From: a virus
Direction: 5' to 3' (one strand)
Length of the DNA stretch: 64,000 nucleotides
Virus record (IMG/VR): IMGVR_UViG_3300045988_059494
Location: 7,219 to 71,218 of that record
Shown piece by piece: positions 5,674 to 58,026 of the stretch. A program made the position numbers and the translations under genes. The notes beneath the pieces are model-generated. The model was given only the letters and a program-made list of their open reading frames with translations. It was not told where the DNA came from and searched no databases. How positions within the stretch are numbered: the stretch's first letter is position 1; each line of letters opens with the position of its first letter.

Positions 5674-6820
5674 AGACTATCTTTTACTATTAGCTTTTAA
5701 CTAATAGGATACCATTTCGGTTTTCAGTTGCTTCGTTTCCTAAAACAACGCTACGTACCAATAGTAGCCCTACTCCCAGTCTAACCCGGGATAGTCGTTA
5801 CAGGTTTCTTAAAGGATAAACAAGGTTATTATCTTTGAATGACTCTCCAATATTTATTCTTCTAACAGTTTCTTTAGAAGAACCATATAAATCAATTATT
5901 TCTTGGTAGGTCATATCAGTATGAAGCAGCGCATCTTTTATCTTGTCTGCCCTTATCGCTCTAACGTCTCTTTTTCGAATGGGATAAGTTGGATATAATC
6001 CTTTTTTTAATGTTCCAGCATTTATTTTCTTTACTGTGGAATATCCCATATCAAGTTGTTTAGCAATTTCTGCTAAAGATAAAGTAGAATTCGTTAGTAG
6101 TTCAATTAATTCGTCATAATCTGAATCATTCTTGTAATATTTATAGAGAGGATAATTTTGATTTTTGTCATAGAAATACAATCCATTATTGATGCTTGAA
6201 ATAAATGAAGCACTAATATTATACTTCTATTCTAACTCATAATAAGGAATACCTTCCTAGATTTCTTTTTTCAAAGAAGCTATTTGATCTTGTGATAAAA
6301 TAGAATTTCTAATTCTACTACCACCGCCAAGATCAGAATTATATCCCTCTCCATCTCCTCTAAAACTATTCTTTTCTTTTATCCAAAACTGTTCTCTTTC
6401 ATTCACAATATTTATATCATCTGTATAAATCTATTCTAAAACTTCAATTTCAAAATTGTCTATACCATATTGACGCATTTTACTGTGAATTAAATCGTTA
6501 TAAGAACTAGATTTAGAGTTTAAAGCACAAGAACGATGTTCTCTTATACGACGTTTTAAATTATTTGTTTGGCCAACATATTTGTGACCATTTATCTTGT
6601 TTGTGTAACAATATATGTAATACATTATATACCTCCATAGCATAATGTATTACCATGTTATCCTTTAAGACTTCCCACGGGATTATCATGGCAACACAGT
6701 TAGGATACTTTTTATATCCTCTATGTTACTTTAGAATTCCCCGTTAGCAATTAACAATTTTTGTCCAAAATTTTTAATTACCCTCGTGGTAAGCGAGTAA
6801 AATATCTAGGGGCAAGCATT
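5660..6820 (-). mobile_element. candidate group I intron (or free-standing HEG insertion) interrupting dnaE, carrying a GIY-YIG ORF
   Basis: ~1.16 kb between DnaE halves. Putative 5' exon ends GGT AAG TAT (GKY) followed by intron G; putative 3' end ...AUAGUG before GGT AAA CAC. A junction GKY|GKHDS would restore the conserved DnaE motif. Confidence 0.35.
5798..6643 (-). CDS. GIY-YIG homing endonuclease with 3 in-frame TAG codons
   Basis: N-terminal YIYCYTNKINGHKYVGQTNNLKRRIREH (GIY-YIG), middle EQFWIKEKNSFRGDGEGYNSDLGGGS, C-terminal HTH region; track ORFs 6431..6643 and 5798..6181 are in frame, separated only by TAGs. Confidence 0.7.
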
Positions 6821-9334
6821 TCACCCCATCTGCGGACCGAGACCAAATTTCCAGACATACTTACCTAGCTTCTCGGATTTCGCCGTATCCAAAACTTTCT
6901 GATGAAGCTCTGGAATTTTATTCATCTGTTTCTTACCAACAATCTTTCTTGCGGCATTCGCTTCAGCCAGACTAAAGTTACAAATATCTGGATCCCGCAA
7001 CATTTTCATTAGCTGCTCCTGAGAAGGAGGCACACCATAAGAAGATAAAAAGTAAGGTTCCAAAGTTTTCTGTTCTTGTTTAGTCAAGCCATTATTGTCC
7101 ATCTCTTTATACCAAAGAGAAATATCATGCTTATAACGAACATACTTTTCCATCGGAGTTTCTGCGCCCGGTTCAGAAGCCATAAGACGCATCAAACCAT
7201 TGGCATCCGCCATCTCTAACGGGTTATGCGGACGAATTTTCTTAGCTGCCTGTGCGCCTACTGCGCTATCAAACTGAAAACAACCAATTACATCATTGTT
7301 AGCCAGAGCGTTCCACATAGCTTCATCATCTTGCGGCAGGATAGATGGATGTAGATACTTATTATAGACCTCTCTAAGAGTTAAGTTTTGCTCAATAACT
7401 TTATCTGCTTGAAGCAGTTCAATGGTCTGAATGATAATATCCTGTACACTTGTTAGCAGGAAGTCATACTTTACGGAACCTGCGGCCTCTTGGTCATGCA
7501 GATCCCACTGTGTAATTAACGCGCCCTTAGGAGTTCGCATAACCGCGGCAGAGTCATAGATGTTTTCATCAAAAAGGATAACGCCAGAAGCGTGACTACT
7601 TCTTTTATTAACCATGCCTTGAATACGAATAATAATATCAAGCAAGCCTTCATACTGCGAAACCGCGGTTACAAATGCTTTAACAGGCTTTCTGCCTTTC
7701 TCTTGATTACCATTTACAACATCTTCAATCGGCCACAGGAAACCGCGCTCTTGAGGAATCAAAGAACTCAAGTATTGTGCTTCATCAACATCAATACCGT
7801 CGGGATATTCCTCAGAACGATAACCTCTACACGCAGTCAAGATTGCAGATTTTGTACCCTCTGTACCGAAAGTGCAAACCTGAATAAGACCAAGTTCTCC
7901 TCTTTCCTTGCGGATTTCGGCAAAAATCTTCTGAATTTTAGACGGCGCCAAGTCAAGATCAATATCGCCTAACTCAACACGTTCATCGTTAATGTAACGC
8001 CAGAAAGGTAAGTCCCACTCGAGGGGATCAAGCTGAGTAATACCAAGGAGATAATGGTTTAAAGCTGCACACGCAGAACCACGACCTGCGCCGACTGTAC
8101 TGCCGCAATTCCAGAACAAATCTACATAGTGCTTCAATGTATTAGGATATGCGAACATACAAGTCTGCAATTTCTCGCCAATGACTCTCTTTACTCTTGC
8201 TTCTTCTTCGAGTCTTTCCCAATACTCTTTCTTGTGGATAAGACCTTTCTCCTGCATTGCAATGATGCACTCCTGAATCCAATATTTCTCTTGCTCGTTA
8301 TCAGATTCAATCAAGGAAGTTAGTACCTTATAATCATCACGGAAAGTATCCATCATATCCGCGGGAACGCGAGACCAGTCGCTGCAATTATAATGAGTTA
8401 CTGCTACTTCTGGGACAGACTGATGCTTCTCAAGAGAATAAAACTCAATCTTATCCTTGATCTCATTAGAATTGTCATAGATAGAGTAAACTGTATCTAA
8501 GTCAAAGCTAGACAAAAGTAAATCAGTTGTCTCTTGTTCAGTCATAAGATATGTGAATTCATAGAATGAATCAACTTCTCGCTCACCACCCTTAGAATTA
8601 AGATAAGACTTGTGAACATATCTATCTTCTTTAGTTAGATAATGAGCATCCGTACCAACGCACATCTTTACATCAAATACTTGGGCAATTTTGAGCATTC
8701 TCTTGTTTGCAGTAACCTGATCACTGTTGCTTGCAGGAGCACACTCAACATAGAAGTTATCCTTGCCAAAAACGCTAATACAAAATTCCATAAAGTCAAT
8801 AATCTGTCTATGGTAACGATACGCATTATCAGTATCATTAGCTTTTTCGCAAGCATCGAGGTTAAGAATAGAATTACCTAATTCACCACCAATACACGCA
8901 GTCGTGCCGATAATGTCTCCCTTAAATCTCTGCATAACTTCCTGTAATTCTGATTTCAAAAGCGGGACTCGTTCCATACCACGATCATAGTAACTATTAG
9001 TCCACGCAATAGAAGACAGCTCTTTAAGACCTCTGTATCCATGCTCATTCTTTGCAAGCAAAATAAAATGATAATACTTTTGTCCCATATCTCGAGTATC
9101 GGTAAGATAAATCTCATTACCCAATGCTACAGTAAACTCAGGATGAGTTTCCTGAAGTTTCTTTGCATACTTATTTACTCGCATATGTGAACTTAAGGAT
9201 TCGTGATCTGTGATGGCAATACCAGTCAAACCAAGCTCAATAGCCTTATCAATTAGCTCTTCTGGATGATTGATACAATCGAGAAGGCGCAAATTACTAT
9301 ACTCAGTATGAGCATGGTTGTTAAAATAACTCAT
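6821..9334 (-). CDS. dnaE: DNA polymerase III alpha (DnaE) N-terminal portion: PHP domain plus polymerase core
   Basis: N-terminal PHP motif HAHTEYSNLRLLD...GIAITDHESL; 837 aa; ends within the conserved GKYGFNKSH-like motif. Confidence 0.8.
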   Translation of the reverse strand: MSYFNNHAHTEYSNLRLLDCINHPEELIDKAIELGLTGIAITDHESLSSHMRVNKYAKKLQETHPEFTVALGNEIYLTDTRDMGQKYYHFILLAKNEHGYRGLKELSSIAWTNSYYDRGMERVPLLKSELQEVMQRFKGDIIGTTACIGGELGNSILNLDACEKANDTDNAYRYHRQIIDFMEFCISVFGKDNFYVECAPASNSDQVTANKRMLKIAQVFDVKMCVGTDAHYLTKEDRYVHKSYLNSKGGEREVDSFYEFTYLMTEQETTDLLLSSFDLDTVYSIYDNSNEIKDKIEFYSLEKHQSVPEVAVTHYNCSDWSRVPADMMDTFRDDYKVLTSLIESDNEQEKYWIQECIIAMQEKGLIHKKEYWERLEEEARVKRVIGEKLQTCMFAYPNTLKHYVDLFWNCGSTVGAGRGSACAALNHYLLGITQLDPLEWDLPFWRYINDERVELGDIDLDLAPSKIQKIFAEIRKERGELGLIQVCTFGTEGTKSAILTACRGYRSEEYPDGIDVDEAQYLSSLIPQERGFLWPIEDVVNGNQEKGRKPVKAFVTAVSQYEGLLDIIIRIQGMVNKRSSHASGVILFDENIYDSAAVMRTPKGALITQWDLHDQEAAGSVKYDFLLTSVQDIIIQTIELLQADKVIEQNLTLREVYNKYLHPSILPQDDEAMWNALANNDVIGCFQFDSAVGAQAAKKIRPHNPLEMADANGLMRLMASEPGAETPMEKYVRYKHDISLWYKEMDNNGLTKQEQKTLEPYFLSSYGVPPSQEQLMKMLRDPDICNFSLAEANAARKIVGKKQMNKIPELHQKVLDTAKSEKLGKYVWKFGLGPQMG

Positions 9335-9396: not shown

Positions 9397-10558
9397 TCAA
9401 TCTTTCAACACCAAAGTTAATTTCTGCGCCGCACGAGTACAAGCTGTGTAAAGCCACCGAGCATGATCTGCTTGTCTTAATACTTCCTCGACTACTAATA
9501 CCTTATCATACTCGCTACCTTGGGATTTATGAGTCGTGATACAATAGCCATAGTCAAATTGCTCCGGTCGCAACTGCTTAGGAAACAGTCGAAAGTTTTC
9601 TCGATTTACTGTTGTTTCTTTGGTGGTAATAAGTTTCCAATCCATCAAGAGGTCATGAAATGTCTGATCTCTCTTATCAGCATTATCAATCGTCTCAGGG
9701 GTAAAATCAATTAAACACATAGGATTAAGCCACTTATTTGGGACGGTAGCAATCTTATCAATAGTACCAATAGTGCCATTGACGAGAGCGTCTCCAGTCT
9801 CAGTAATCTTATCCCAGTTGTTTTTAAGACAAATAACTTTATCTCCAACAATAGGATTAGGAATGTCTTCACCATAGCGCATATTGCGGTAATAATTATT
9901 TAATGTATGACGAGTAATATTTTTCCCGCAAAGAATCTGATCTGCCCATGTAAACATACCGTCACACATCTCTCTATGACGCACAATATTGATTTCAGTG
10001 CCTTTATAAGGCTTGATAAGTTTACCTTCTCGAATATCTGCGGACAGACGAATAATCTCGCTTTCTGCAGCCTGGCGCATAATTTCATCGAGGAAGATGT
10101 GCGGACGTTCAAGAATGCCATTTTCTTCGCCAATAGGCGGTAACTGACCGGGATCGCCGCAAGCAATTACATAAATGCCATGCGACAGCAGCAAATTCCA
10201 CATAGGCTTAGGTAGCATAGATACCTCGTCAACTACGATAATATCATAATCAGAAATATTATCTTTAGGGATATGAATAAAGCTGCCATCTGCGCGCGGA
10301 ACAGATTTATACAAGAGTCTATGTGCAGTCATAGCAGTGGGACAACCCTTATTTCTTAGTACCTGTGCAGCTTTGCCGGTATAAGCGATATATCCAACTC
10401 TTTCGGGATCAATATCGAGAGCGGAGATAATAAACTTGATAAGAGTAGATTTACCTGTTCCTGCTTTCAGGCGTAGCCAGCGATCACGGTATAATTTTCG
10501 TTTGCGTGATATCTGGCTACAGCAATTTTCAAACCCTCTTCTTGTTTTTTAGTTAATT
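9397..10558 (-). CDS. RecD/Dda-like superfamily 1 helicase; needs -1 frameshift or ~8 nt hop at GCC TGA just before Walker A
   Basis: ATG at 10556-10558 gives MELTKKQEEGLKIAVARYHANENYTVIAGYA then TGA. The Walker A (AGTGKSTLIKF) and the rest of the helicase (track ORF 9397..10332) are in the -1 frame, with no start codon of their own. Confidence 0.55.
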
Positions 10559-11088
10559 CCATCGGGTTTTACTTCCTCCTTTTCTTTTAAATTTAATTCA
10601 TCTATTGTCCACATATTATCATGCAATTCTTTATGACAATTAGAACATAATAATATACATTTTTTACTTTCTTCAACTGCTTCTTGCAACTTAAAGTGGT
10701 CATTACTTATAGTAAAATCCTTTTGTGATGGGTCTAAATGATGAAATTCTAATGCTTTTAGGCATTTACTATAGCCGCATCTTACACATTGACCTCCGCG
10801 TTGCTATTTTATTTTAGACAGAAAGGCCCCTCTTGTTAGCTAAATTCCTTCTGACATACAGTCATAACAACAACTTCTCTAATTAGCCGCAGCACTTTTA
10901 GGGGTGAAAGTTTTTCCACATATAGGGCATTTTTTTTCTTTCAGACCCGAGGCTCCTGTAATTTTTCTCTCTTGATTACGTTGCTTTCTAGCTTGATACA
11001 TACAAGCATCACTACAATATTTTTTTGTGGATTTTATAGCTTCAAACTCTTTTCCACAAACTGTGCATATATTTGTCATAAAAATCAT
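10549..11088 (-). CDS. HNH homing endonuclease with 3 in-frame TAG codons
   Basis: C-terminal CGYSKCLKALEFHHLDPSQKDF...LLCSNCHKELH (HNH); track ORF 10879..11088 ends at TAG and the frame continues; paralog of 53357..53896 with a TAG at the aligned position. Confidence 0.65.
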
Positions 11089-19883: not shown

Positions 19884-20188
19884 TATTATTCTCCCACTGT
19901 ATTAGAATAGCCTACGACGTTAAAATTGCTAGCTAACCAACAATCTAAATCATCTACAACGGCGACGCATCTCTTGCCTCTAAAGTTATCTATATAGTAT
20001 GAATAGCTAATAAATCCCAAGTTTGATGGAAGCGGCCCCACTTCTGTGATAAATCGTTTTACCTGAGAAGAAGGAGCATTACCAACAAATAAAATTTGCT
20101 TATCGGGATTTTCTTTAGCAAGCTAATTAGCATATCGCATTAAGGTAGCTGTTTTACCAGCTCCTCTATTTGTAATTACCTTAAACAT
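19865..20188 (-). CDS. P-loop NTPase, hypothetical; in-frame TAG at codon 22
   Basis: GGAGG SD, MFKVITNRGAGKTATLMRYAN-TAG-LAKENPDKQILFVGNAP...; no ORF in track because of the TAG. Confidence 0.45.
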
Positions 20189-21099
20189 TAGGAGCCTCCT
20201 CTGGTACTATTTAGACCATAATCTTTTGTTTTATAGAACTCAATCCAATAAGTCTCTCGCTCATTCAACTAAGCTCGAGGCACTTCTTCCAAAACTTCGA
20301 ACATGAAATTATGCTGTCCAGATTTTTGCATTGCCTAATATAACTTATTAGTCGCTGGACCGTAAGCTAAAGAAGTTTTAATGTGTTGCCTAAAACGCTC
20401 TTTAATATCAACAGATTGGCCAATATAGGCCTAACCAGTGATTAGATTAGTAATCTTATAGATACCACAGACTTTAGAGGCTTTTGGAAATAACTTACTC
20501 ATAAGTGCATCATAAGATGGCTTATAATAAGTTTCCCAAATTAGCTTATCAATAGCTTCTTTCTTGAAGAAACGAGTCTATAATTCTCGCAACAGACTTA
20601 TATCATTAACACTTAAATCATCAATAGTTAGTCGATAATAGTCCTAATTTGCGGCACTCTCTTCTTGACGCTATTGAGCTTGGATATACGCTAACTATTT
20701 AGCTTCTAACTGCTCCAGTTTGTCTTGTTCTACTAGAACCTACTAGGCAATTTCCGCGAGTTCTTTTTCCTTTTGCTGTTCAAACTCTTGATAGACTTTT
20801 TCTAATTTTTCAGTTTCTCGCGCATATATTGTCTTTGCGCTCTCTTTGGCTTGCTGCTCTGCGTTTTCCCGCATTTTAGTAGCTGTATCAATTAAAGAGT
20901 TGATAACTTCATTCTACTAATCTATATTAGCTTTTAGCTACATTAAATCTAGATTATGTCGTTCAATATCTGATTCAATGCGCTCATTTTCTGCCTATCG
21001 CTCTCTATTTATTGATACTACTTTAAGCCGATCATTGCGGAGGTGGACAGTATATCCTGCCAAAGCAGCAATAATTAAACCTAATAGTAAATATATCAT
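20188..21099 (-). CDS. TM helix + coiled-coil + C-terminal GIY-YIG domain protein; 13 in-frame TAG codons
   Basis: MIYLLLGLIIAALAGYTVHL (TM), Q/E-rich coiled coil, then GIYKITNLITG-TAG-AYIGQSVDIKERFRQH...ETYWIEFYKTKDYGLNSTRGG (GIY-YIG). Single frame from ATG 21097-21099 to TAA if TAG is sense. Confidence 0.6.
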
Positions 21100-22947: not shown

Positions 22948-25311
22948 TTATACTTGCGTAATAGAGATAGTCTGATCGTTATTCTTCAGCATGATATTAC
23001 CCATAGAAGCTCTTCCAAGAGTGGGAATATCCTTACCACTGATAACAATAGAAGATTTATTGCCATTGATGAGGAGATTATCAGTTTCCTTAATAATCTC
23101 CGCACCCGCAATTTCTTCCTTATAGCACATCAGACCCTTACCTCCACGATTCTGGAGTGTAAGTTCATCAATCTTAATTTTCTTGCCTAAGCCATTCTTA
23201 GAAACAATAGCAAGATAGTCTGCGGGATCTGTGATCGGTAAAGCCGCAATTACACTATCTCCATCATTTAGTTTCATGCCCTTTACACCTTGCGCTGTGC
23301 GAGAAGAAATGGGCATTTCCGCAGTTCCAAAGCGAATGGTCATACCATTTTTAGTTACAAGAATCATCTGCTCTTGATTAATAAATGTAACATCTACGAG
23401 TTCATCATCGCCCTTGAAGCTAATTGCAATAATGCCAGTACGCTTCATTTTATCGTACTCATTTAACGGAACCTTTTTAATAGTGCCGTTTTTGGTAGCA
23501 AAGAAAATAAATTTCTTATCTGTATCTCTTGTTAGAGTAGTAAATGCCATAGGTACTTCGCCATTCTCAAATTCAATTAAGCTAGAGATAGGCGCACCAT
23601 TAGACGCATTAGTACCCTCTGGAATATTGTCTACCAGTATACGATACATCTTACCCTTAGACGAGAATACCATTAAAGTATCCTGAGTATTAGTTCTCTG
23701 CGAAAAGACAATAATATCTCCAGTCTTAACGCCAACAGTATTGCGTTTCTGCGCTTTAAAACTCTTAGCATCAATTCTCTTGATAGTGTTCTTTTTAGAA
23801 ACTACTACAACGCAGTCCTTTGGTTCGACTACTACCATCTCTTTTTCCTGCTTAGGAATATCGACATTGAGAAGTTTAGTTCTACGAGCGTCACCATAAG
23901 TATCTCTTAACTTAGAGATTTTCTCGATAAGAACTTGGTTGCGGATTTCCTTATTAGTTAAAAGGTTGACGCACTCCTCGATAAAAGCTCTCTTTTCTTT
24001 CAACTCATTTACAAGTTCTTCCTTGTCAATGCGTGTTAATTTGCCGAGCTTCATATCAAGAATTGCATTTGCCTGCACTTCATCAACGGTAAGAAATTCC
24101 ATCAACTTAGTGCGGGCGTCTGCGCGACCAGCAGATTGCTTGATAAGCGCGATTACGTCGTCAATTTTATCAACTGCCGCAATTAGACCTTCCAAGATAT
24201 GTGCTCTTGCTTCTGCTTTTTCTTTATCAAAGGTTGTCGCATTGATTAACACATTTTCCTGATGGTCTACATAAGCTCGCAGCAGATCCACCATAGAACA
24301 TAACTTAGGTGTACCATTGACAATATAGTTCATATTATAAGATAGTGTAGACTGCAAATCAGTCAGCAGAAACAGCTTGTTCAAGGCTTTAGATACAGAA
24401 ACACCATCTTTAATATGAAACACCAGTCTATTCTGACCGATATTAGACTCATCATCAAAATCGTCAATCATCTCGCTCAGAACATCAATATTCTTTTCGA
24501 TCTGCTCTTTAATCTTGTTACGATAAGTTCGATAAGGGATGCTTGTAAAAATGATGTCTTGCCCATCAATCTCGTAATCACCTTGAATTTTAAGTGATAC
24601 ATTAGACTTGCCAGATGCAAAAGCAGTCCGCACATCCTTAATATTAAGAACCGTGCCGCCGAGAGGGAAATCTGGACCGGGAATATAAGACAATACTTCA
24701 TCAATAGAAAGATTGCCCTTTTCAATTAGCGCAATCGCAGCGTTACATACCTCAGTAAGATTGTGCGGCGCGGAATTATGTGCCATTGAAATACCAATAG
24801 CTTGACGGCCATTGCAGATAGCATTAGGGAACAATGACGGGAGAATAACTGGCTCCTGGAACTCACCATTATAAGTTTCTTTTGTTGGAACAACTTTCTT
24901 AGCAAAGTCATTCATCATTAGATCAGTAAACTTAGATGGCTTAGCTTCAGTATAACGAGAAGACGAAAACATATCATTGCTCTCTTGCGTACCCAACTGT
25001 CCCTGTCCTGTAACAAGAGGATAGCGCATAAGAAATTCCTGCGCCATCTTACGAAGAACGCCATAACAAGCAATATCGCCATGGAAATAAGAGGTTGCAA
25101 GCGTAGAGCCAATGATAGCATTACACTTCTTTGTTTTACTCTTGCTATCCATTTTTAAGTAATCTTCCATAGTCCACAGGATTTTTCGTTGAGCGCTAAG
25201 GAGTCCATCCTCTGCGGCAGGGATGGCTCGATCAGTCAAGACTTCTTCTGCATATGTCAAGAAATTATCTTTCGCTTCATCAAGAATATCAACTTCAGTA
25301 ATCAAACTCAT
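22948..25311 (-). CDS. type II DNA topoisomerase, GyrA/gp52-like breakage-reunion subunit
   Basis: 787 aa; QRKILWTM, active-site Tyr region; follows the GyrB-like subunit. Confidence 0.85.
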   Translation of the reverse strand: MSLITEVDILDEAKDNFLTYAEEVLTDRAIPAAEDGLLSAQRKILWTMEDYLKMDSKSKTKKCNAIIGSTLATSYFHGDIACYGVLRKMAQEFLMRYPLVTGQGQLGTQESNDMFSSSRYTEAKPSKFTDLMMNDFAKKVVPTKETYNGEFQEPVILPSLFPNAICNGRQAIGISMAHNSAPHNLTEVCNAAIALIEKGNLSIDEVLSYIPGPDFPLGGTVLNIKDVRTAFASGKSNVSLKIQGDYEIDGQDIIFTSIPYRTYRNKIKEQIEKNIDVLSEMIDDFDDESNIGQNRLVFHIKDGVSVSKALNKLFLLTDLQSTLSYNMNYIVNGTPKLCSMVDLLRAYVDHQENVLINATTFDKEKAEARAHILEGLIAAVDKIDDVIALIKQSAGRADARTKLMEFLTVDEVQANAILDMKLGKLTRIDKEELVNELKEKRAFIEECVNLLTNKEIRNQVLIEKISKLRDTYGDARRTKLLNVDIPKQEKEMVVVEPKDCVVVVSKKNTIKRIDAKSFKAQKRNTVGVKTGDIIVFSQRTNTQDTLMVFSSKGKMYRILVDNIPEGTNASNGAPISSLIEFENGEVPMAFTTLTRDTDKKFIFFATKNGTIKKVPLNEYDKMKRTGIIAISFKGDDELVDVTFINQEQMILVTKNGMTIRFGTAEMPISSRTAQGVKGMKLNDGDSVIAALPITDPADYLAIVSKNGLGKKIKIDELTLQNRGGKGLMCYKEEIAGAEIIKETDNLLINGNKSSIVISGKDIPTLGRASMGNIMLKNNDQTISITQV

Positions 25312-25325
25312 AAAATCACTCCTTA

Positions 25326-27224
25326 TTACTCAAAATTGAAACCTAATTCATTAGCATTATCATAGATATACTGCTTGCGAGGTTCCACTGCACTACCCAT
25401 GAGAATATTTAATAGTTCCGTGGTTTTCTCTGCATCAGAGATAGAAATACGTTTATATCTCTCATTCATAAAACATACTTTCTGCAAGTCCTCAGGATTT
25501 AACTCACCAAGACCCTTCGCGCGAAGTAGGTCGTATGAACCGGTATGAGTATTCTTCCATTCGGTCAGTTCATCTTCTGTGTAACAGTAATACTCATTTC
25601 CCTTATGACGAATAATATACAATGGAGTTACAGCTCTGTATAGCTTACCGGCTTCCACAAGAGGACGCATATAAGTATAGAAGAAAGTAATCAGCAGCAA
25701 CTCAATGTCTGCGCCATCACTATCTGCATCAGAAGTAATAACAACCTTGTCGAAATTCATCTTGTTAACATCAAAAGAAGAACCAAATCCAGCACCAATT
25801 ACGCGCACAATGTCAGACATCTCTTGGTTGGCAAGAATTTTTTCTACCGCAGTTTTAAGCGGAGATACGATTTTACCACGCAACATATAGATGCAATCTG
25901 TCTTCGGATTGCGGGCTTCTACTGCGGAGGCGCCTGCAGACAAACCCTCTACTACCAGAAGATTGCGGTTTTTGGGATTCTTATTCGTGCAATCAATAAA
26001 CTTATTACTGATTTGCATTTTTGCCTTTAAACCGGTTTCTTTCTTACCCTTTACACCACGAGCAGCATCACGCGCTTTACGTGCTGCTTCTCTAGCCTTA
26101 CGCGCATTAAGAGCCTTATCCGCGATCTTCTTGACATCTTTTTCATTCGCTGCGAGCCAATACTGAAGCTCTTCAGCGATTGCCGAGGTAAATGGCTTCA
26201 TGTCAAGTTTAACTACTCTACTCTTGGTCTGCGCATCATATGCTACACCCGGCGCAGTTACGTTGAATGCGATATATACGCCTTCTTGACAATCTTCACC
26301 CGTGAGATTTTCGTCCTTGTCTTTCAGCCAACCTTTCTCACGGAAGAACTTATTCATTTCTCTAGTGAGAATAGTCTTTACCTGCGTAATATGCGGACCT
26401 GAATCTGTAAGACCAGTATTTACATACGGAACAATGGTTGCGGAATAAGAATTTGTGTAGGTCAGAACTAAATCCAGCTTGTTCTTGTTATCAGAAAAGT
26501 TGAAGTTCAGACGGTTTTTCAAAATCTCCTTGCCCTGTACTGCCTCGTCCACAAGATCCATTAGACCATTCTTAGAAGAGAAAATTACCTGCGGCTTACC
26601 TTCTACATTTAGCTCGATAGTAAGACCAGGACACAAGCACGCAATTACCTTAAACAAATTGAGAATGGTATTCATATCTACTTCTGGATGAGTGAAGAAC
26701 TCTTCACTTGGCTGCCACTGAACAAGAGTACCAGAAGGATAATTCTTATTATCCCATGCACCACATTCACGCTTCTCAAAGACGCCTTCCTTGAACCAGA
26801 TATGTTCATACTTACCATCTCTATGACTGATTACTTCGAGCCAATGAGAAAGATAAGTGGTCAGCTTACTGCCGATACCGTTCAAGCCAAGAGCTGTACC
26901 TTCATAAACGCCATCATCAGAATACTTACCAGAAGTATTGAGTACGCTAAAAGATGCTTCAAGAACGGTCTTTCCATCGTCTCGCTTGGCATTAGGAATA
27001 AAACCCTGACCATTATCTTCCACGATAATAGTATTATCTTTCTTAATAGTCACGTTAATTTTATTACCATGCCCAGCTTTAAATTCGTCAACTGCGTTAG
27101 ATACAATCTCAATCAACAGCTGAGTAGAGTACTCAGTACTGCCGACGTAAACACCTGGCCGCAGTCTTGTAAATTCAAGAGGCGAGAGTGACTCAATTGA
27201 CTTCTCATCATATAGTTTTCCCAT
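25326..27224 (-). CDS. type II DNA topoisomerase, GyrB/gp39-like ATPase-TOPRIM subunit
   Basis: GHKL ATPase motifs (EIVSNAVDE, DNGQGF), TOPRIM (LLVVEGLSAG); 632 aa. Confidence 0.85.
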   Translation of the reverse strand: MGKLYDEKSIESLSPLEFTRLRPGVYVGSTEYSTQLLIEIVSNAVDEFKAGHGNKINVTIKKDNTIIVEDNGQGFIPNAKRDDGKTVLEASFSVLNTSGKYSDDGVYEGTALGLNGIGSKLTTYLSHWLEVISHRDGKYEHIWFKEGVFEKRECGAWDNKNYPSGTLVQWQPSEEFFTHPEVDMNTILNLFKVIACLCPGLTIELNVEGKPQVIFSSKNGLMDLVDEAVQGKEILKNRLNFNFSDNKNKLDLVLTYTNSYSATIVPYVNTGLTDSGPHITQVKTILTREMNKFFREKGWLKDKDENLTGEDCQEGVYIAFNVTAPGVAYDAQTKSRVVKLDMKPFTSAIAEELQYWLAANEKDVKKIADKALNARKAREAARKARDAARGVKGKKETGLKAKMQISNKFIDCTNKNPKNRNLLVVEGLSAGASAVEARNPKTDCIYMLRGKIVSPLKTAVEKILANQEMSDIVRVIGAGFGSSFDVNKMNFDKVVITSDADSDGADIELLLITFFYTYMRPLVEAGKLYRAVTPLYIIRHKGNEYYCYTEDELTEWKNTHTGSYDLLRAKGLGELNPEDLQKVCFMNERYKRISISDAEKTTELLNILMGSAVEPRKQYIYDNANELGFNFE

Positions 27225-27226
27225 CT

Positions 27227-27730
27227 TTAACCTCCATACATATCTAATACTTGCTGTTCAGTAATTTTGCCCGTGGCTAATTGATCAGCAAGCTCATTAA
27301 ATAGTGTTCCATTATGTCCTTTTACATATCGTAAATCTATTTTTAATCCTTCTTTTGATGTAAGTCTATCATATTCAAGAATTAAATCCTTGTTTTCTAA
27401 CGGCTTGTTGCCGGCGCGAACCCAGCCATTTGCCTCCCAGTTCTTAATCCAATTAGTGAAACTGTTCACGCAATACATAGAGTCGCTATAAACAACAGGA
27501 ACAAAGAAATCACCATCTTTAGCTCCATAGTTATTGATAGCCCACAAGATAGCGGACATTTCCATTCTATTGTTTGTAGTGCCTTCAGCTCGTTCTGAGT
27601 ATGCGGCAATTACCTTATAAGTTTCTGGATCCTGATACGGCTCGGCTTCACAAACTACAACACCGAAACCACCTTTAGCGTTTTTATCGCCGTTCTTCAA
27701 GGTCGAACCATCTGTATAAATCACAATCAT
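27227..27730 (-). CDS. ribonuclease H
   Basis: MIVIYTDGSTLKNGDKNAKGGFGVV RNase H start; likely start at the internal ATG (track ORF begins upstream inside the promoter block). Confidence 0.7.
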   Translation of the reverse strand: MIVIYTDGSTLKNGDKNAKGGFGVVVCEAEPYQDPETYKVIAAYSERAEGTTNNRMEMSAILWAINNYGAKDGDFFVPVVYSDSMYCVNSFTNWIKNWEANGWVRAGNKPLENKDLILEYDRLTSKEGLKIDLRYVKGHNGTLFNELADQLATGKITEQQVLDMYGG

Positions 27731-27830
27731 AGCGAATACCTCAAATACTTCATTTATTTTTAAGTTCTCCTTTTCCTTTTCTGTATATATAATATCATAT
27801 TTTTTATAAAAAATCAAATTAAAAACAAAT

Positions 27831-27864
27831 AAAAGCTCGATAGACGAAAGTCTATCGAGCTTTT
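27831..27864. terminator. hairpin terminator
   Basis: AAAAGCTCGATAGAC...GTCTATCGAGCTTTT. Confidence 0.55.
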
Positions 27865-27910
27865 ATTATTAGATCGTTGAATCTTCATCAGAAGGGTATG
27901 TCATCTACTA

Positions 27911-28120
27911 CTATGCATTATACATAGCTAGATCGTAGGTAATCCCACCCTTTTTATGATCTGACTTACTCATATTAAGATAGAATGAGCAAACTATCCC
28001 ATGAGCTGACCAAGGTAAACCAACCAACGCACTAATCCAAGGTAAAGACCCCAGATATCCTAAGTGCACGCAATAAAACGCTAACAAAATACCAGAAAGA
28101 GTTACGACCCATAATAGCAA
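27911..28120 (-). CDS. putative holin (two TM segments); ends with TAG TAG TAG
   Basis: Hydrophobic 69 aa ORF immediately downstream of the amidase gene; TTG start per track, start uncertain. If TAG is sense it gains a 15-residue charged tail ending at TAA (~27871). Confidence 0.4.
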   Translation of the reverse strand: MLLWVVTLSGILLAFYCVHLGYLGSLPWISALVGLPWSAHGIVCSFYLNMSKSDHKKGGITYDLAMYNA

Positions 28121-28193
28121 GCGAATATCGCAAATTAACTATTTAGAAAACTCTTTCTTAGATTTTTGTCTATGCTTTTTTTGCTAAGTTGAT

Positions 28194-28937
28194 TTAGTTT
28201 TGCTTTTCAGCATAGCGCTTCAATACAGTAACGAATTCGCCGCGAGTCAGGAAGCTTTTTGGCATCAATTGACCCTTTTCGTTACCTTTAATTAGACCTT
28301 GCTCCTGTGCCCATTTCATTGCCTCTTGTTCCCAAGTCATAGGCTTTAGATCTCTTTGCGCAAGGTAAGTATCCATCATTTTATTAAATTGATCCTGTGT
28401 CACAATTTCTTCCTCCTTTTTAATTGGTGCAGTTGCGGTCAGACGCTTTTTGAAATCAATCCACTTGCTTTCATCGCGTACCCAAGGTTCTGGACAACGC
28501 TTACCAGTTACGTCATAATGTCTAATGACATGGTCTGCCGCAATATTATACTTCTTCATTAACATCTTTACTAGTTCAACTGTACGATTTACTGTTGCTT
28601 CGGTAATGACATATTTACCATTTACAATATCGCTGCACATCTCGACGCCAATAGAATTTCGGTTTGTACAGATATTTCGATATGGGTGATGTGAAGACTC
28701 TAAAGAGCCGCCACAATGCCAAGCACCATCTGAATCCTTTACAGATTGAACTACGCTATTTTCATCTACAAAGTAGTGTGCGGAAGCCTGACGATTAGCT
28801 CCAGAGAAATAGTTGCCATTACCAGCTGCTGTATCTCCGTTATTCGCAGTATAGTGGACTACAATATATAGAATAGAGTTACCACTACGCCCACTATAAT
28901 AATTAGATGAATGAGCGGGAATAAATTTTATTTCCAT
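28194..28937 (-). CDS. N-acetylmuramoyl-L-alanine amidase (endolysin; amidase_2/PGRP fold plus C-terminal domain)
   Basis: YIVVHYTANNG...AHYFVD...VGVEMCSD signature; 247 aa. Confidence 0.8.
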   Translation of the reverse strand: MEIKFIPAHSSNYYSGRSGNSILYIVVHYTANNGDTAAGNGNYFSGANRQASAHYFVDENSVVQSVKDSDGAWHCGGSLESSHHPYRNICTNRNSIGVEMCSDIVNGKYVITEATVNRTVELVKMLMKKYNIAADHVIRHYDVTGKRCPEPWVRDESKWIDFKKRLTATAPIKKEEEIVTQDQFNKMMDTYLAQRDLKPMTWEQEAMKWAQEQGLIKGNEKGQLMPKSFLTRGEFVTVLKRYAEKQN

Positions 28938-29062
28938 TAATGGTTCACCTCCAATGTGAATTAAGTTATTTAGTTTTATCTTAGTAACAATTAATTAAAT
29001 CTTAGTTGTTGCTAAGGATATAATTAAAGCCAAGAGTTTTTTTCAAACTCTTGGCTTAACTA

Positions 29063-30433
29063 TTAAATTTTATCAGCAATCGCCGCAATCTTGCTTCGAT
29101 AGATATTCTTAAGAGTGACTTCACCATAACTGTCTTGTCCTCTAAAGATTTTAGAGACACGTTTCATACCGTTATTAGCTCCAGAAAAATGAATGTCATC
29201 TACCTGGGTTTTTTCGTCACCATCAATAATACAAATACAATCTTCGCCAACTCGCTGTAAAGCTAGTTTCATAAGTGTGCGATCTAGGTTTTGAGCTTCG
29301 GAAATATAGATACCTGCGCTCATTCCTGTTGTATCATATCCACGAATATCGGAAAATGGTAGAAGAATTAGCTTGCCGTCCGCGATCATTTTTTCAACAG
29401 CTTCTCTGCCTCCAAATTTACTACTTAGCAAATTACCGATCTGAGAATCTAGTAGTTTTTCATCTTTTGTTCCAGGATAATAACCCAATTTAGCAGAATT
29501 TGCTGTGGCAATAGTGTTACAAAATACGATAATTTTATCTAGCTCTCCGGCTTCTAATTTTGCCATTAAATAAGCAAGAGAAACATAAGTTTTTCCGCTA
29601 CCAGCAGGGCCTTTTACTAAAGTCAACTTATTATTTCGTAAACTATCAAATAACATTTTTTGATAGATGTCATCTTGATATGGGACAATCTTACCAAACC
29701 ATTTAGATTTAATGGGCTTTGAAACAAGATATTTGAATTCATCACCTGTCCAAACCCGCAGGTCTACAATCTTATTGTCTTTATCTTTAATAATGAGATA
29801 CTGTCCCGGCAGTAAACCAAAGTTATTATCTGCCTTTTGATAGAAGTCATTTAACTCATTATCATCTAAGACTACTTCTACATAACCTGTATAGTTATCA
29901 GCATCTTCATTCACGCTTTCTATCATTCCGTGACCAAGAAATTGATTTGCGATATGTTTAAGACTAAGATCGTTAGTCACGAATACAATATCTTCATTCT
30001 TATCTCTTGCGATTGCATCAGACAAGATTCTGGTGTCATCAGTAATATCAAATCCCTTTTTAAGAATGACCTTTTCGTAACAAATCTTATGCGGGACTAC
30101 TTCATATCTATCTGGATATTTCTCAAATAGATGTAACAAGAGACGAGCGGAATATTTTACATCAGCGTCTTTATTAGATGCTGTCTTAATTCTTTCAAGC
30201 TCTTTAAGTGTAATAGAGGATACTAAAAATGGCTTAGTATCTTGCTCAAACAACTCTTCTCCTCCCAACAATAGAGAGCAAGTATCATAAAAATAAGTGT
30301 CTGTTGGGAAGCGAAATTCATTATACATATTCATTGTCCTCTTCGGTTGTGGTAGTGAATCCGATTGTTCTAGTTTGAGTTTTCTACTCACTAAGTTCAC
30401 TAATGGTAACATTGTGTCGAACAATCCTTTCAT
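29063..30433 (-). CDS. PhoH-like ATPase with N-terminal PIN domain (YlaK-type)
   Basis: Walker A GPAGSGKTY, PhoH core; 456 aa. Confidence 0.7.
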   Translation of the reverse strand: MKGLFDTMLPLVNLVSRKLKLEQSDSLPQPKRTMNMYNEFRFPTDTYFYDTCSLLLGGEELFEQDTKPFLVSSITLKELERIKTASNKDADVKYSARLLLHLFEKYPDRYEVVPHKICYEKVILKKGFDITDDTRILSDAIARDKNEDIVFVTNDLSLKHIANQFLGHGMIESVNEDADNYTGYVEVVLDDNELNDFYQKADNNFGLLPGQYLIIKDKDNKIVDLRVWTGDEFKYLVSKPIKSKWFGKIVPYQDDIYQKMLFDSLRNNKLTLVKGPAGSGKTYVSLAYLMAKLEAGELDKIIVFCNTIATANSAKLGYYPGTKDEKLLDSQIGNLLSSKFGGREAVEKMIADGKLILLPFSDIRGYDTTGMSAGIYISEAQNLDRTLMKLALQRVGEDCICIIDGDEKTQVDDIHFSGANNGMKRVSKIFRGQDSYGEVTLKNIYRSKIAAIADKI

Positions 30434-30592
30434 TTATATTAGCTTTAACGAGTTCTGTTAGTGCGCTGATGATTTCAGTAACACTAGTTAATAAGGTGGT
30501 ACCCACAGTGATCAAAAGAACTCCCGTAAGATATATAATAATATTGTCAATAAAACCACCTCTTATTTATAATGATAAATAAAAAGGAATTT

Positions 30593-31102
30593 TTAATTAT
30601 CGTTGGCCTTACGTCTAAAACGCTTTACAGATTCAATCGCTTTATCTTGACCAATAATATATTTATTTAACATATCTTCCTCTTTATCAAGAGCTGATTT
30701 AATCGCGGAAAGGCGAGATTCAATACGCGCAATATTGTGGTGGAAGGCGTTAGAGGGGTCAACTTCCGCAGAAGTTTTAGCACCGAAACCTAATACCTCT
30801 TGATAGAATTGCTCGCGGGCATTGAGCTTATTTTCCTCTTTCTCATAAGAGTATTTAAGAGCTTGAATTCTTGCTTTTGATAGGGCGATGTTGTAGCCTA
30901 CTTTTTTAGAATAAAAACCTTCATCTTGCTTGCTTAAAATAGCTGTACCATAAAAATTTTTTCCATTATAATTGATTATTACAAAAGTTATGCCTTGTTC
31001 TTCGCAATATTCTTTTACAACTACAGGAGCTTTATATATAGATTTAATTAGTTTCATTATTTGATTCTCCTTATCTATCTCTTTATCTATATAATAGCAC
31101 AT
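30593..31102 (-). CDS. hypothetical protein; N-terminal domain paralogous to 55243..55575
   Basis: Shared pattern V..V....G.A.........F....G..IAL.KA between the two ORFs. Confidence 0.3.
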   Translation of the reverse strand: MCYYIDKEIDKENQIMKLIKSIYKAPVVVKEYCEEQGITFVIINYNGKNFYGTAILSKQDEGFYSKKVGYNIALSKARIQALKYSYEKEENKLNAREQFYQEVLGFGAKTSAEVDPSNAFHHNIARIESRLSAIKSALDKEEDMLNKYIIGQDKAIESVKRFRRKANDN

Positions 31103-42518: not shown

Positions 42519-43784
42519 TCATACTTCCTGTGCTTCCTCCATATCCGGTGCATTTTCAGTCTCCTTAATGATGCCTTCAAGTACCTTAAACTCGTAGGTC
42601 TTAGACTTGAAAGCAGTGAAGGAACGACGATTTACAATACGAATTACAACGCCTTCCTTGACATGAGTTTTGCCAATTGGGTCTGCAAGATCCTCGAAGT
42701 AATCATTGATGCGCTTCAACAGATCATCTACGGTAGTAAACTCAAAGTTGTCAATCACTGGTACTCGATTAAAGCCATGCTCATCACACCATGCAGTAAT
42801 CTCGTCAGGAGTCCACTCACGCTCGCCGTTCTCAGAAGTGATGCGGTAAATCCACATATGAGACTCACCCGGCTCGCATCCATAAGAGAAAATAGAACGC
42901 TTGCCGAACTGTTTCTGGAAAGCCTTGTCTTTCAGCTTCGAGTTATCGCCAATCGGCATGATAGTATCTCCATCGCCGAGACCATAGTAACCTACAACCT
43001 CGTAAAAGACTTCCATACCCGGCTCAAGGAACGGCTTCAGCGCCTCGTGATGCGGCAGTCGGAACTTATTATCACCGTAGTAGCCACCATCATCCTCAGA
43101 GACTACACAACGACGAGTACCAAGTACATAAGCCTGCTTAGTACGCTTCTTCATATGAAACAGGCGACGGAAGAAACCATTCGGCAGCTCCGCAACAGTA
43201 TTCATAGAACGCTGAGAAGTACCATGCATTTTAAGAGTCATGTTTAGCTGATCGCCCGGACGGAACGCATCAAGATTGTAAGCAAGCTGTGCAGTATCAA
43301 TGTGCATTGCAAAATCCGGATATACAACGCCCTCTGCCTTACGACCCTTATAAGAGGTCTTAGCCACAGTCTGCGGATACTTGCGCTTCGGGATATACTT
43401 GCGGCAGAACTCTTTATCATTGACGGTATTTACCTTATCACCATCCTCCCAGTGCTGATCGCCAAATACTTCATAGACATGGTCAAGAGAAATGACAATA
43501 CCAGAACTCTGGTTGCCACGGAGCTTAATTGCCCGGATGTGAGAGCTATTTTCCAAATATCCGCCTTGAGGAGTGCCATCGAGATTTTTTCGATATAAGG
43601 TGAAAGCATCGCCGAACCATCTCTCAATCTCTCCGTCTGTAGGAAGATAAAGCACTAACTCATTTTCTTTCATGTTGGACCCAACAATAACTCCTTCATT
43701 AAAACAATCTGCAAGCCACAGATTATCAGAATTGGGATCTTTATGCAGATTATTCAATTTTGTCACTAAAGCATAGTAAGCCAT
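42519..43784 (-). CDS. ATP-dependent RNA ligase (Rnl2-like nucleotidyltransferase with N-terminal extension)
   Basis: Motif I KMHGTS (KxHGxN), motif IV EGVVIR, motif V FKSK; 421 aa. Confidence 0.7.
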   Translation of the reverse strand: MAYYALVTKLNNLHKDPNSDNLWLADCFNEGVIVGSNMKENELVLYLPTDGEIERWFGDAFTLYRKNLDGTPQGGYLENSSHIRAIKLRGNQSSGIVISLDHVYEVFGDQHWEDGDKVNTVNDKEFCRKYIPKRKYPQTVAKTSYKGRKAEGVVYPDFAMHIDTAQLAYNLDAFRPGDQLNMTLKMHGTSQRSMNTVAELPNGFFRRLFHMKKRTKQAYVLGTRRCVVSEDDGGYYGDNKFRLPHHEALKPFLEPGMEVFYEVVGYYGLGDGDTIMPIGDNSKLKDKAFQKQFGKRSIFSYGCEPGESHMWIYRITSENGEREWTPDEITAWCDEHGFNRVPVIDNFEFTTVDDLLKRINDYFEDLADPIGKTHVKEGVVIRIVNRRSFTAFKSKTYEFKVLEGIIKETENAPDMEEAQEV

Positions 43785-44499
43785 TTAACTCATGTTCCTC
43801 CTCTTTACTAATTCGTTTATATATAAAACCTTTATATGTGTTTCTCTGCCCATTTAATACTCGATAAATTGCTTTATCAGTTTTTGCATCTGGACAAAAT
43901 TCTCTATATGCTGAAATTGCAGTAGGAAAAATAGCTAATAATTGACCATCTTTATCATACTTCGCAATCGGCTATCTTCTTGCTTCCAACGCCTTTTTCT
44001 TTGCATCTTCTCGATGACCATCTTGATAGGCTTGTTTTAATTTTTCACTTCGCTCTTTTTTTAAGGAAGGATTGTCGATAAACTTCTATTTTAGAGAGTT
44101 GCTAATCTTTTCGTTTCTTTTGTTACTATAAGTTCGATTTTTAGCAGCTAGAGTCATATGCTGTCGATACTCTGGATCTTCCCATAGCGACTTAACAGAC
44201 TCGCCTATCTGTTTTCTAACTTCTTCCGTTTGATAGTTTCCGCCTGGAGAGACATTGTAACCAAAACTTGTATCTAAAAGATTTAATTCTTTGATTGTGT
44301 CTATTTCTTTTTGTCGAATTAAATCTTCATTATCGGATTCTAATATCACTTCTTTAGTTACATTTTCCCAGCCATATTTTTCAATAGCGTAGCCGACACG
44401 CTATCCTTTATATCTCCCCGATGCTCGCTGTTCAATGGAATTTCTAGTAATTCCGCAGTATTTCTTCCCATTTGGGAAAGTGTATAAATAACAAATCAT
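43750..44499 (-). CDS. GIY-YIG homing endonuclease (I-TevI-like architecture) with 3 in-frame TAG codons
   Basis: AGGAGG SD; MICYLYTFPNGKKYCGITRNSIEQRASGRYKG-TAG-RVGYAIEKYGWENV (GIY-YIG), NUMOD-like repeats, C-terminal DNA-binding tail; track ORF 44086..44349 is the middle fragment. Confidence 0.65.
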
Positions 44500-53979: not shown

Positions 53980-54055
53980 TGGAGCAAACGGCTGGATTCG
54001 AACCAGCGATCACGGGGTTGCAGCCCGCTGTCTTAATCCACTTGACTACGTTCGC
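53980..54055 (-). tRNA. tRNA-Cys(GCA)
   Basis: Hand-folded cloverleaf: acceptor GCGAACG/CGTTTGC, anticodon loop CUGCAAC, T-loop GGTTCGAATCC, U73, encoded CCA. Confidence 0.7.
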
Positions 54056-54075
54056 ATAAGAGCGGCAAAAGCCGC

Positions 54076-54327: not shown

Positions 54328-54354
54328 TGTTTTATAACCCTTTCTGTAAGTTAA

Positions 54355-54436
54355 TGGTAGGCGAGGAGGGACTCGAACCCTCACGCATAAGCAGCAGATT
54401 TTGAGTCTGCCGTGTCTACCATTCCACCACTCGCCC
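54355..54436 (-). tRNA. tRNA-Leu(CAA), type II
   Basis: Acceptor GGGCGAG/CTCGCCT (G1-U72), anticodon loop CUCAAAA, long variable arm, A73, CCA. Confidence 0.65.
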
Positions 54437-54596: not shown

Positions 54597-54640
54597 AAAT
54601 TTTTCATTTATTGCTTTCATTGTAAATAATCCAGGACTGC

Positions 54641-58021: not shown

Positions 58022-58026
58022 ATGCC

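What the first reader, a model, noticed from the sequence alone, without database searches (positions are those of the whole stretch)
27871..28120. Putative holin gene terminates with three consecutive TAG codons followed by a short open tail
The hydrophobic 69-aa ORF next to the endolysin ends ...AMYNA TAG TAG TAG ATG ACA TAC CCT TCT GAT GAA GAT TCA ACG ATC TAA. Under standard decoding the triple amber is an emphatic stop. Under TAG-to-Gln decoding the protein gains a QQQMTYPSDEDSTI acidic tail. Because holin C-terminal charge controls lysis timing, suppressor-dependent extension could couple the lysis clock to the code switch. An upstream in-frame TAG also leaves the true start ambiguous.
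Basis: inference. Interest (0 to 1): 0.55.

Follow-up and report, generated by a model that had tools for sequence, protein, structure and literature searches.

The report
Amber-recoded phage holin gene
The three TAGs are not a stop: this uncultivated gut phage reads TAG as glutamine, so the real lysis-membrane-protein gene has 114 codons, five of them TAG, and needs an amber-suppressor tRNA, a known phage strategy seen here in a clear example.

Summary
A 69-codon TTG-started ORF ends in TAG TAG TAG (27913..27905). Eleven sense codons follow, then TAA TAA TAA (27871..27863) and a strong terminator hairpin.

The 69-aa ORF is a standard-code artefact. More than 160 homologues align across the whole read-through frame. 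They have a Gln run where the window has TAG×3, "FSKQLICDIR" where the window has FSK-TAG-LICDIR, and 125 of 132 end in Ile, as the window's tail does (…DSTI).

The real gene is ATG 28213 to TAA 27869: 114 aa with TAG at codons 10, 25 and 101-103.

No gene in the window ends in TAG. TAG positions align mostly with CAA/CAG-encoded Gln in orthologues. A 96-98% identical genome carries a tRNA(CUA) about 2.1 kb beyond the window end.

This is therefore a genetic-code-15 phage, and its putative holin cannot be made without amber suppression. Preferential recoding of lysis genes has been described before (Borges et al.; phAss-1). I file it as a new member of a known kind.

The model of an optional tail on a short holin does not. 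Whether the TAGs set lysis timing remains an inference.

The parts
27869..28213 (-). Full-length putative holin gene under TAG=Gln decoding. It has 114 codons plus the TAA stop: MLKSKTKSTqQKKHRQKSKKEFSKqLICDIRLLLWVV...AMYNAqqqMTYPSDEDSTI, where q marks TAG. It overlaps the 3' end of the endolysin gene by 20 nt.
   Evidence: Read-through frame. Homologues of 93-117 aa align end to end. All 7 substitutions against the 97% identical relatives L001 and L022 are synonymous in this frame, including one upstream of the TTG and one in the tail.
28184..28186 (-). In-frame TAG, codon 10, in the K/R-rich N-terminal region.
28139..28141 (-). In-frame TAG, codon 25, in the conserved motif FSK-[Q/K/R]-LI.DIR.
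   Evidence: This column holds Q in 53, K in 46 and R in 30 homologues. Sister phages L087-L101 encode the Q with an ordinary Gln codon rather than TAG, while L085, L086 and L102 use TAG.
27905..27913 (-). TAG TAG TAG, codons 101-103, in the C-terminal cytoplasmic tail.
   Evidence: It aligns with the Gln run of the closest homologues (QQQ to QQQQQQQ), which itself contains 1-2 TAG in sister phages: QQqQQ, QQqqQ, QQQqQ.
27863..27871 (-). True termination signal: TAA TAA TAA directly after the conserved C-terminal Ile.
   Evidence: 125 of 132 family members end in Ile. No gene in the window ends in TAG.
27828..27867 (-). Intrinsic-terminator-like hairpin (18 bp, 6 G-C pairs) followed by TGTTTTT. 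It closes the transcription unit that includes the endolysin and holin genes.
28194..28937 (-). Endolysin (N-acetylmuramoyl-L-alanine amidase type, 247 aa). It has no in-frame TAG and ends in TAA. Its last 20 nt overlap the holin start.
53980..63696 (-). Phage tRNA cluster with 12 genes, none with a CTA anticodon. In the 96-98% identical genome IMGVR_UViG_3300045988_055134 the same cluster continues past the window end and holds a tRNA(CUA) about 2.1 kb beyond position 64000.

Best explanation
The window comes from an uncultivated gut phage of about 145 kb that decodes TAG as glutamine (genetic code 15). The putative holin gene runs from ATG 28213 to TAA 27869 and encodes 114 aa. The protein has a K/R-rich N-terminus, two transmembrane helices and a charged C-terminal tail that ends in a conserved Ile. 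Five of its seven Gln codons are TAG: two lie before the first membrane helix and three in tandem lie in the tail. A host using the standard code would stop at codon 10. The protein can therefore be completed only when a tRNA(CUA) outcompetes release factor 1. Yield should scale roughly with the fifth power of suppression efficiency. Holin synthesis, and hence lysis, is thereby tied to the phage's code switch. Shown by computation: the gene structure, TAG=Gln, and a suppressor gene in a near-identical genome. Inferred: holin function, a standard-code host with RF1, and any effect on timing.
For: The frame is conserved across all five TAGs, and homologues cover the N-terminal motif and the tail. 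CAR and TAG interchange at homologous positions between sister phages. Residues aligned with TAG in orthologous genes are Gln in 34 of 94 cases (19 CAA, 15 CAG), then K, E and R, with few S, Y or L. Of 62 minus-strand ORFs, 47 end in TAA, 12 in TGA and 3 apparently in TAG, and all 3 of the last continue in frame for 72-254 codons of protein-like sequence. No TAG stops occur in the relatives L080, L265 and L266. A tRNA(CUA) sits in the tRNA cluster of the near-identical genome and of the seven other TAG-holin contigs that were checked. The holin is enriched in TAG: 5 of 7 Gln codons against 7.5% in the window, P=4e-5. The family lies on the same strand downstream of a cell-wall hydrolase in 72 of 75 loci, and these hydrolases are of three different types. 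AlphaFold2 on the closest homologue gives a helical hairpin plus a C-terminal helix. The published model that recoded phages preferentially recode lysis genes fits these facts (bioRxiv 10.1101/2021.08.26.457843; PMC10607447).
Against: The suppressor tRNA is not inside the window; it was found only in a 96-98% identical genome. That tRNA has a long variable arm, which is unusual for a Gln acceptor, so the inserted residue is inferred from alignments only. 'Holin' rests on context, because there is no Pfam, NCBIfam, PHROG or BFVD match. Code-15 relatives L265 and L266 have no TAG in their holin, and L103-L107 also lack TAG in theirs. The window's endolysin has none either. TAG in the holin is therefore not a fixed requirement of the clade. 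Nothing here shows when the tRNA or the holin mRNA is expressed.
Confidence: 0.8

Rival explanations
1. Neutral recoding. TAG is simply a synonymous Gln codon in a genome that has already switched code. The triple TAG arose by C-to-T transitions in a CAG/CAA run in a fast-evolving tail, and it has no adaptive role in lysis timing. The gene structure and the decoding are as in the best explanation.
For: TAG number and position in the holin vary from 0 to 5 among code-15 relatives. TAGs can arise only in the hydrophilic ends, because the membrane core has no Gln. A time-series study notes that recoded genes are simply the faster-evolving ones (bioRxiv 10.1101/2023.08.07.552389). The window's endolysin has no TAG.
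Against: 5 of 7 Gln codons are TAG against a 7.5% background (P=4e-5). Three diverged holin lineages (window type, L087 type, L154 type) each carry at least one TAG before TMD1 and at least one in the tail, at different positions. Whatever the selective history, two TAGs before the first membrane helix make synthesis suppressor-dependent.
Confidence: 0.35
2. A functional 69-aa holin is made under standard decoding and ends at the triple amber. Suppression only adds an acidic 14-aa tail that retunes lysis timing, giving two isoforms.
For: The 69-aa ORF contains both membrane helices. If suppression is incomplete, some product ending at codons 101-103 must exist.
Against: TTG 28120 has no Shine-Dalgarno sequence, while most genes in the window have GGAGG. 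The nearly invariant motif FSK.LI.DIR lies upstream of it and behind two TAGs. No homologue genuinely ends at this position, and those that appear to are standard-code miscalls. A substitution upstream of the TTG is synonymous in the long frame.
Confidence: 0.05
3. A standard-code phage with a decayed or truncated holin gene. The TAGs are real stops and the downstream similarity is a relic.
For: No suppressor tRNA lies inside the window.
Against: TAG is never used as a terminator in about 60 genes. There are 13 in-frame TAGs and no TAA or TGA in a conserved 303-codon GIY-YIG gene. TAG aligns with Gln. A tRNA(CUA) is present in the near-identical genome. The substitutions seen are only synonymous.
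Confidence: 0.02
4. The decoding is as in the best explanation, but the protein is not the hole-former. It could be another membrane component of the lysis cassette, such as an antiholin, a lysis regulator or a membrane anchor.
For: It matches no described holin family. There is no significant fold match. Borges et al. also describe a strongly recoded transmembrane protein of uncertain lysis role.
Against: No other small membrane ORF was noted beside the endolysin in the ORF list for 25000..31000. Its start overlaps the endolysin stop in many unrelated phages. Its size, two TMDs and charged ends fit a class II-like holin (established holin knowledge).
Confidence: 0.2

Closest known systems
Stop-codon-recoded gut phages with preferentially recoded lysis genes (Borges et al., bioRxiv 10.1101/2021.08.26.457843; crAss-like, Lak and the 'gemstone' clades, including Agate at about 154 kb)
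   Same: TAG is read as an amino acid. A phage-encoded suppressor tRNA is present. Replication genes are free of in-frame stops, while lysis genes, transmembrane proteins and homing-endonuclease genes carry them. The proposed role is to block premature expression of lysis proteins.
   Different: Clade membership could not be tested, because no reference genomes were at hand. Here the lysis cassette sits inside the replication-gene block (PhoH, endolysin, holin, RNase H, gyrB, gyrA). The endolysin is unrecoded, and the holin carries a tandem TAG×3.
phAss-1 / proposed Phassvirus group (Babkin et al. 2023, PMC10607447)
   Same: A human-gut phage of about 136 kb with many tRNAs, tRNA-SUP-CTA genes and TAG=Gln. 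The holin ORF carries suppressor TAG in some members and not in others.
   Different: It is not a close relative. Neither DNA nor the holin core matched a named relative in the GenBank phage collection, and the best GyrB identity there is 35%.
Experimentally validated code 15 in crAss-like phages (Peters et al. 2022, PMC9523058)
   Same: The same reassignment, TAG to Gln, shown there by metaproteomics (abstract).
   Different: A different phage order and host phylum. There is no protein-level evidence for the present phage.
Class II holins and holin timing control such as lambda S105/S107 and S21 (textbook knowledge, not tested here)
   Same: A small protein with two TMDs and charged cytoplasmic ends, encoded next to the endolysin. 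Lysis timing is sensitive to holin amount and to terminal charges.
   Different: There is no sequence or profile similarity to any described holin family. The control proposed here works at the level of codon decoding, not through a dual-start antiholin.

Membership tests
Genetic code 15 (TAG=Gln) recoded phage gene | In-frame TAGs inside an ORF whose frame and homology continue across them | tested here: met
   There are five TAGs, and homologues align from the N-terminal motif to the terminal Ile.
Genetic code 15 (TAG=Gln) recoded phage gene | TAG positions correspond to Gln in homologues | tested here: met
   FSKQ and the Gln run in the holin. Across three other gene families, 34 of 94 aligned residues are Gln, and 19 of those are CAA.
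Genetic code 15 (TAG=Gln) recoded phage gene | TAG is not used as a terminator in the genome | tested here: met
   0 genuine TAG stops among 62 ORFs in the window. 0 of 67 called genes in L080, L265 and L266.
Genetic code 15 (TAG=Gln) recoded phage gene | Phage-encoded suppressor tRNA with anticodon CUA | tested here: met
   It is not in the window. It is present in the 96-98% identical genome, about 2.1 kb past the window end, and in the seven other TAG-holin contigs that were checked.
Genetic code 15 (TAG=Gln) recoded phage gene | Gln actually inserted at TAG (protein-level evidence) | not testable with these tools
   This needs proteomics. The tRNA has a long variable arm, so its charging identity is uncertain.
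Holin | Small membrane protein with at least one TMD and a charged, hydrophilic C-terminus | tested here: met
   The sequence has two hydrophobic stretches and the tail KSDHKKGG...DEDSTI (my reading of the sequence). The AlphaFold2 model of P0001 has helices at 12-46, 49-79 and 86-103, with mean pLDDT 67.
Holin | Encoded next to the endolysin in the lysis cassette | tested here: met
   72 of 75 loci have a hydrolase upstream on the same strand, and in 52 it ends within 400 nt. The start overlaps the endolysin stop in L080, L264 and L265.
Holin | Sequence membership in a described holin family | tested here: not met
   No Pfam, NCBIfam or PHROG hit for the window protein or for 30 homologues. 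No BFVD fold match with E<=0.001.
Holin | Forms lethal membrane lesions that release the endolysin | not testable with these tools
   This needs an expression experiment.
   There is no SD before TTG 28120. A conserved motif lies upstream behind two TAGs. No genuine homologue ends there.
Agate clade of Borges et al. | Phylogenetic placement with the reference Agate genomes | not tested
No reference sequences were available.

The most novel reading that the evidence does not exclude
The five TAGs act as a designed, ultrasensitive translational timer. The two N-terminal TAGs stop any membrane-active fragment from being made early. The tandem TAG×3 in the tail makes completion depend steeply on the tRNA(CUA):RF1 ratio. 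The 100-aa product that terminates at the triplet, lacking the conserved ...TI C-terminus, would act as an antiholin until suppression becomes efficient. Under this reading the lysis clock is literally the progress of the code switch.
Probability: 0.12. Interest if true: 0.6.

Novelty: new member of a known kind. Interest (0 to 1): 0.3.

Why it matters
The finding is a compact case of a lysis gene that cannot be translated in the host's genetic code. It shows how standard-code gene calling yields a plausible but wrong 69-aa 'holin'. It supplies a ready test construct (five TAGs against five CAGs) for the still untested idea that recoded phages use their code switch to time lysis. It also points to a widespread, unannotated family of membrane proteins linked to endolysins. 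That family has invariant motifs (LLW, LPW, GLPW.AHG, C.FY..M.KSDH..GGIT) and a conserved C-terminal Ile.

Tried and rejected
- PHROGs, Pfam and NCBIfam gave no family for the 69-aa, 83-aa or 114-aa forms, nor for 30 homologues.
- The GenBank phage collection has no close relative. Distant blastn of 4 kb gave only endolysin-fragment hits. tblastn of the holin core gave one hypothetical protein in Dulem virus 33. The best GyrB identity was 35%.
- The afdb50 fold library was unavailable, and BFVD gave no significant match.
- Cluster look-up gave no source names beyond 'hypothetical protein'.
- I considered the odd tRNA at 59553..59626 (8-nt anticodon loop) as the suppressor and rejected it. It has no CTA anticodon, and the real tRNA(CUA) was found elsewhere.
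- I considered the 33-aa out-of-frame ORF 28032..28133 as an alternative start and frame and rejected it, because it has no homology support.
- TAGTAGTAG as a bare 9-mer is not statistically unusual.

Full report
**1. Observation**

All genes in the window lie on the minus strand. Reading that strand, a TTG at 28120 opens a hydrophobic 69-codon ORF that ends ...AMYNA.
- It is followed by TAG TAG TAG (27913..27905).
- Then come ATG ACA TAC CCT TCT GAT GAA GAT TCA ACG ATC.
- Then TAA TAA TAA (27871..27863).
- Then an 18-bp hairpin with a T run (27867..27828).

The gene directly upstream (28194..28937) is an amidase-type endolysin. Both in-frame stops upstream of the TTG are also TAG (28186..28184 and 28141..28139).

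The description is therefore correct. As a bare 9-mer, TAGTAGTAG is not beyond chance: 2 are found against 0.48 expected. Any significance has to come from context.

**2. What the gene really is**

A search with the read-through translation found 163 homologues, mostly 93-117 aa long. That is longer than 69 aa, and many of them cover 94-100% of the query, tail included.

In the alignments:
- The closest homologues have a run of 3-7 Gln exactly where the window has TAG×3.
- They read 'FSKQLICDIR' where the window reads FSK-TAG-LICDIR. That column holds Q in 53, K in 46 and R in 30 sequences.
- 125 of 132 family members end in Ile, as the window's read-through product does (...DSTI).

The only canonical start that includes the conserved N-terminal motif is ATG 28213. 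It lies 17 nt before the endolysin's TAA, so the two genes overlap by 20 nt. In relatives the holin ATG overlaps the endolysin stop as TAATG. TTG 28120 has no Shine-Dalgarno sequence, whereas most genes in the window have GGAGG or AAGGAG.

The gene is therefore 28213..27869, 114 aa, with TAG at codons 10, 25 and 101-103.

Two IMG/VR contigs that are 97-98% identical over 12 kb carry the same five TAGs. All seven substitutions in the gene are synonymous in the long frame, including one upstream of the TTG and one in the tail.

A JGI standard-code gene call on a relative (P0026, 68 aa, LWIVT...CEQQ) shows the same artefactual truncation.

**3. TAG is a sense codon (Gln) in this phage**

(a) The database gene for homologue P0014 does not translate to its protein under table 11. 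The DNA reads ...RRRN*KREFSKQ...CKQQ*QQII*DEATI.

(b) Eighty IMG/VR loci of the family show sister phages of about 140 kb with TAG at varying positions, each matched by an ordinary Gln codon in other sisters: FSKQ/FSKq, HNqKRE, QQqQQ, QQqqQ, QQQqQ. High-GC standard-code relatives end ...SP[AMP]I followed by TGA, TAA or a genuine TAG stop.

(c) In the window, 62 minus-strand ORFs of at least 80 aa end in TAA (47), TGA (12) or apparently TAG (3). All three 'TAG-ended' ORFs continue in frame for 72-254 codons of protein-like sequence, including a SPOR domain and a GIY-YIG nuclease. In three 20-kb syntenic loci from relatives, 0 of 67 called genes end in TAG.

(d) In orthologous GIY-YIG, endolysin and PhoH genes, residues aligned with TAG are Gln in 34 of 94 cases. 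Of these, 19 are CAA, which is two mutational steps from TAG, and 15 are CAG. Next come K, E and R, and only 4 S, 2 Y and 2 L.

(e) The window's 12 tRNAs include no CTA anticodon. The cluster runs off the window end. In the 96-98% identical genome IMGVR_UViG_3300045988_055134, a 91-nt tRNA with anticodon loop CUCUAAA lies about 2.1 kb past the position that corresponds to 64000. Equivalent tRNA(CUA) genes are present in the seven other TAG-holin contigs that were checked.

**4. Is it a holin?**

No Pfam, NCBIfam or PHROG family matches the protein or 30 of its homologues. The fold search was uninformative.

The call rests on context and anatomy:
- It is a small protein with a K/R-rich N-terminus, two hydrophobic helices and a charged tail. 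The AlphaFold2 model of the 84%-identical P0001 has helices at 12-46, 49-79 and 86-103, with mean pLDDT 67.
- In 72 of 75 loci a cell-wall hydrolase lies upstream on the same strand. These hydrolases are of three different architectures: Amidase_2, lysozyme plus amidase plus SLH, and CHAP.

I treat 'holin' as likely but unproven. A different lysis-cassette membrane role is a rival, at about 0.2.

**5. Mechanism**

Shown:
- The gene can be translated to its conserved full length only if TAG is decoded.
- Five of its seven Gln codons are TAG, against 7.5% across the window (P=4e-5). Only the conserved GIY-YIG gene at 20188..21099 is more strongly enriched (13 of 27).

Inferred:
- In a standard-code host, ribosomes starting at ATG 28213 stop at codon 10. 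No membrane-active product is made until the phage tRNA(CUA) competes effectively with RF1.
- With five sites, three of them in tandem, yield rises steeply with suppression efficiency.

This matches the published hypothesis that recoded phages encode lysis regulators with in-frame stops to prevent premature lysis (Borges et al.). Holin ORFs with suppressor TAG have been reported in the phAss-1 group, and TAG=Gln has proteomic support in crAss-like phages.

**6. Caveats and rivals**

- Code-15 relatives L265 and L266 have holins with no TAG, and L103-L107 also lack TAG in theirs. The window's endolysin has none, whereas L080's has five. So TAG in the holin is not fixed in the clade.
- The membrane core contains no Gln, so TAG can accumulate only in the fast-evolving termini. 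A time-series study notes that recoded genes are simply the faster-evolving ones. A neutral-drift reading of the triple TAG therefore stays plausible, at about 0.35. It does not alter the gene structure or the suppressor dependence.
- The tRNA(CUA) has a long variable arm, so the amino acid it inserts is inferred from alignments only.

**7. Novelty and verdict**

This is a well-resolved instance of a described phenomenon, in an undescribed phage lineage and an unannotated protein family. There is no close relative in the GenBank phage collection.

In-frame TAG×3 inside long ORFs is rare. In the 2.75 Mb of loci fetched here, only about four other cases occur in frames of more than 100 codons.

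I rate it as a new member of a known kind, with interest about 0.3.

Noticed in passing
window 20188..21099 (-): A conserved 303-aa gene with an N-terminal hydrophobic segment, a long Q/E/K-rich helical-looking region and a C-terminal GIY-YIG domain (PF01541). It carries 13 in-frame TAGs, including two TAG-TAG doublets, and is the most TAG-rich gene in the window (13 of 27 Gln codons, P=2e-8). Syntenic orthologues carry 15, 7 and 6 TAGs (L080, L265, L266). It looks like a fixed gene of the clade, not a mobile homing endonuclease.
   Followed up: partly
window 4267..9334 (-): A GIY-YIG homing-endonuclease-like ORF (5798..6643, 3 TAGs, with helix-turn-helix-like C-terminal repeats) sits between two large ORFs (6821..9334 and 4267..5715). 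I read these by eye as parts of one DNA polymerase III alpha-like gene. This suggests a gene split by an intron or a free-standing endonuclease.
   Followed up: no
window 43750..44499, 10549..11088, 53357..53896 (-): Three more endonuclease-like ORFs are readable only with TAG=Gln: one GIY-YIG-like (weak Pfam hit, below cutoff) and two that look HNH-like by eye, with no Pfam HNH match. They carry 3, 3 and 2 TAGs. This matches the published note that recoded stops occur in homing-endonuclease genes.
   Followed up: partly
window 62453..63313 (-): An ORF encoding a NAGPA phosphodiester-glycosidase domain plus a SPOR peptidoglycan-binding domain, with 3 in-frame TAGs. It lies next to the tRNA cluster and may be a second cell-wall-directed protein that also depends on suppression.
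   Followed up: partly
window 59553..59626 (-); also L164 6755..6828, L168 14069..14142, L252 4753..4826: A tRNA-like gene with an 8-nt anticodon loop (GTTAAAAG). ARAGORN reports a four-base anticodon 'taaa', and the Rfam tRNA score is 31.3 bits, just above threshold. It is conserved among relatives. It could be a quadruplet-decoding or frameshift-suppressor tRNA, or a degenerate copy.
   Followed up: no
L247 7911..8001; L168 6436..6526; L163 13482..13570: The clade's amber-suppressor tRNA(CUA) is 88-91 nt long with a long variable arm (type II-like) and a G73 discriminator. This is unusual for a tRNA expected to accept Gln, and its charging identity deserves a test.
   Followed up: partly
L168 9253..9598; L259 1001..1345; L262 5009..5354; L263 3167..3510: Several relatives encode a tmRNA (tag peptide DNNYFDSHMAA or DNDYFDSHMAA) inside the tRNA cluster, just after tRNA-Arg(tct). 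The window has only a 77-nt gap at the equivalent place (63543..63619). A phage tmRNA in a stop-codon-recoded phage is worth a look.
   Followed up: no
window 28194..28937 versus L080 8670..10001: The endolysin upstream of the conserved holin differs between close relatives: 247-aa Amidase_2 type here, 443-aa lysozyme plus amidase plus SLH there. The last few codons (…KRYAEK) are shared. This suggests module exchange with a junction at the holin start.
   Followed up: no
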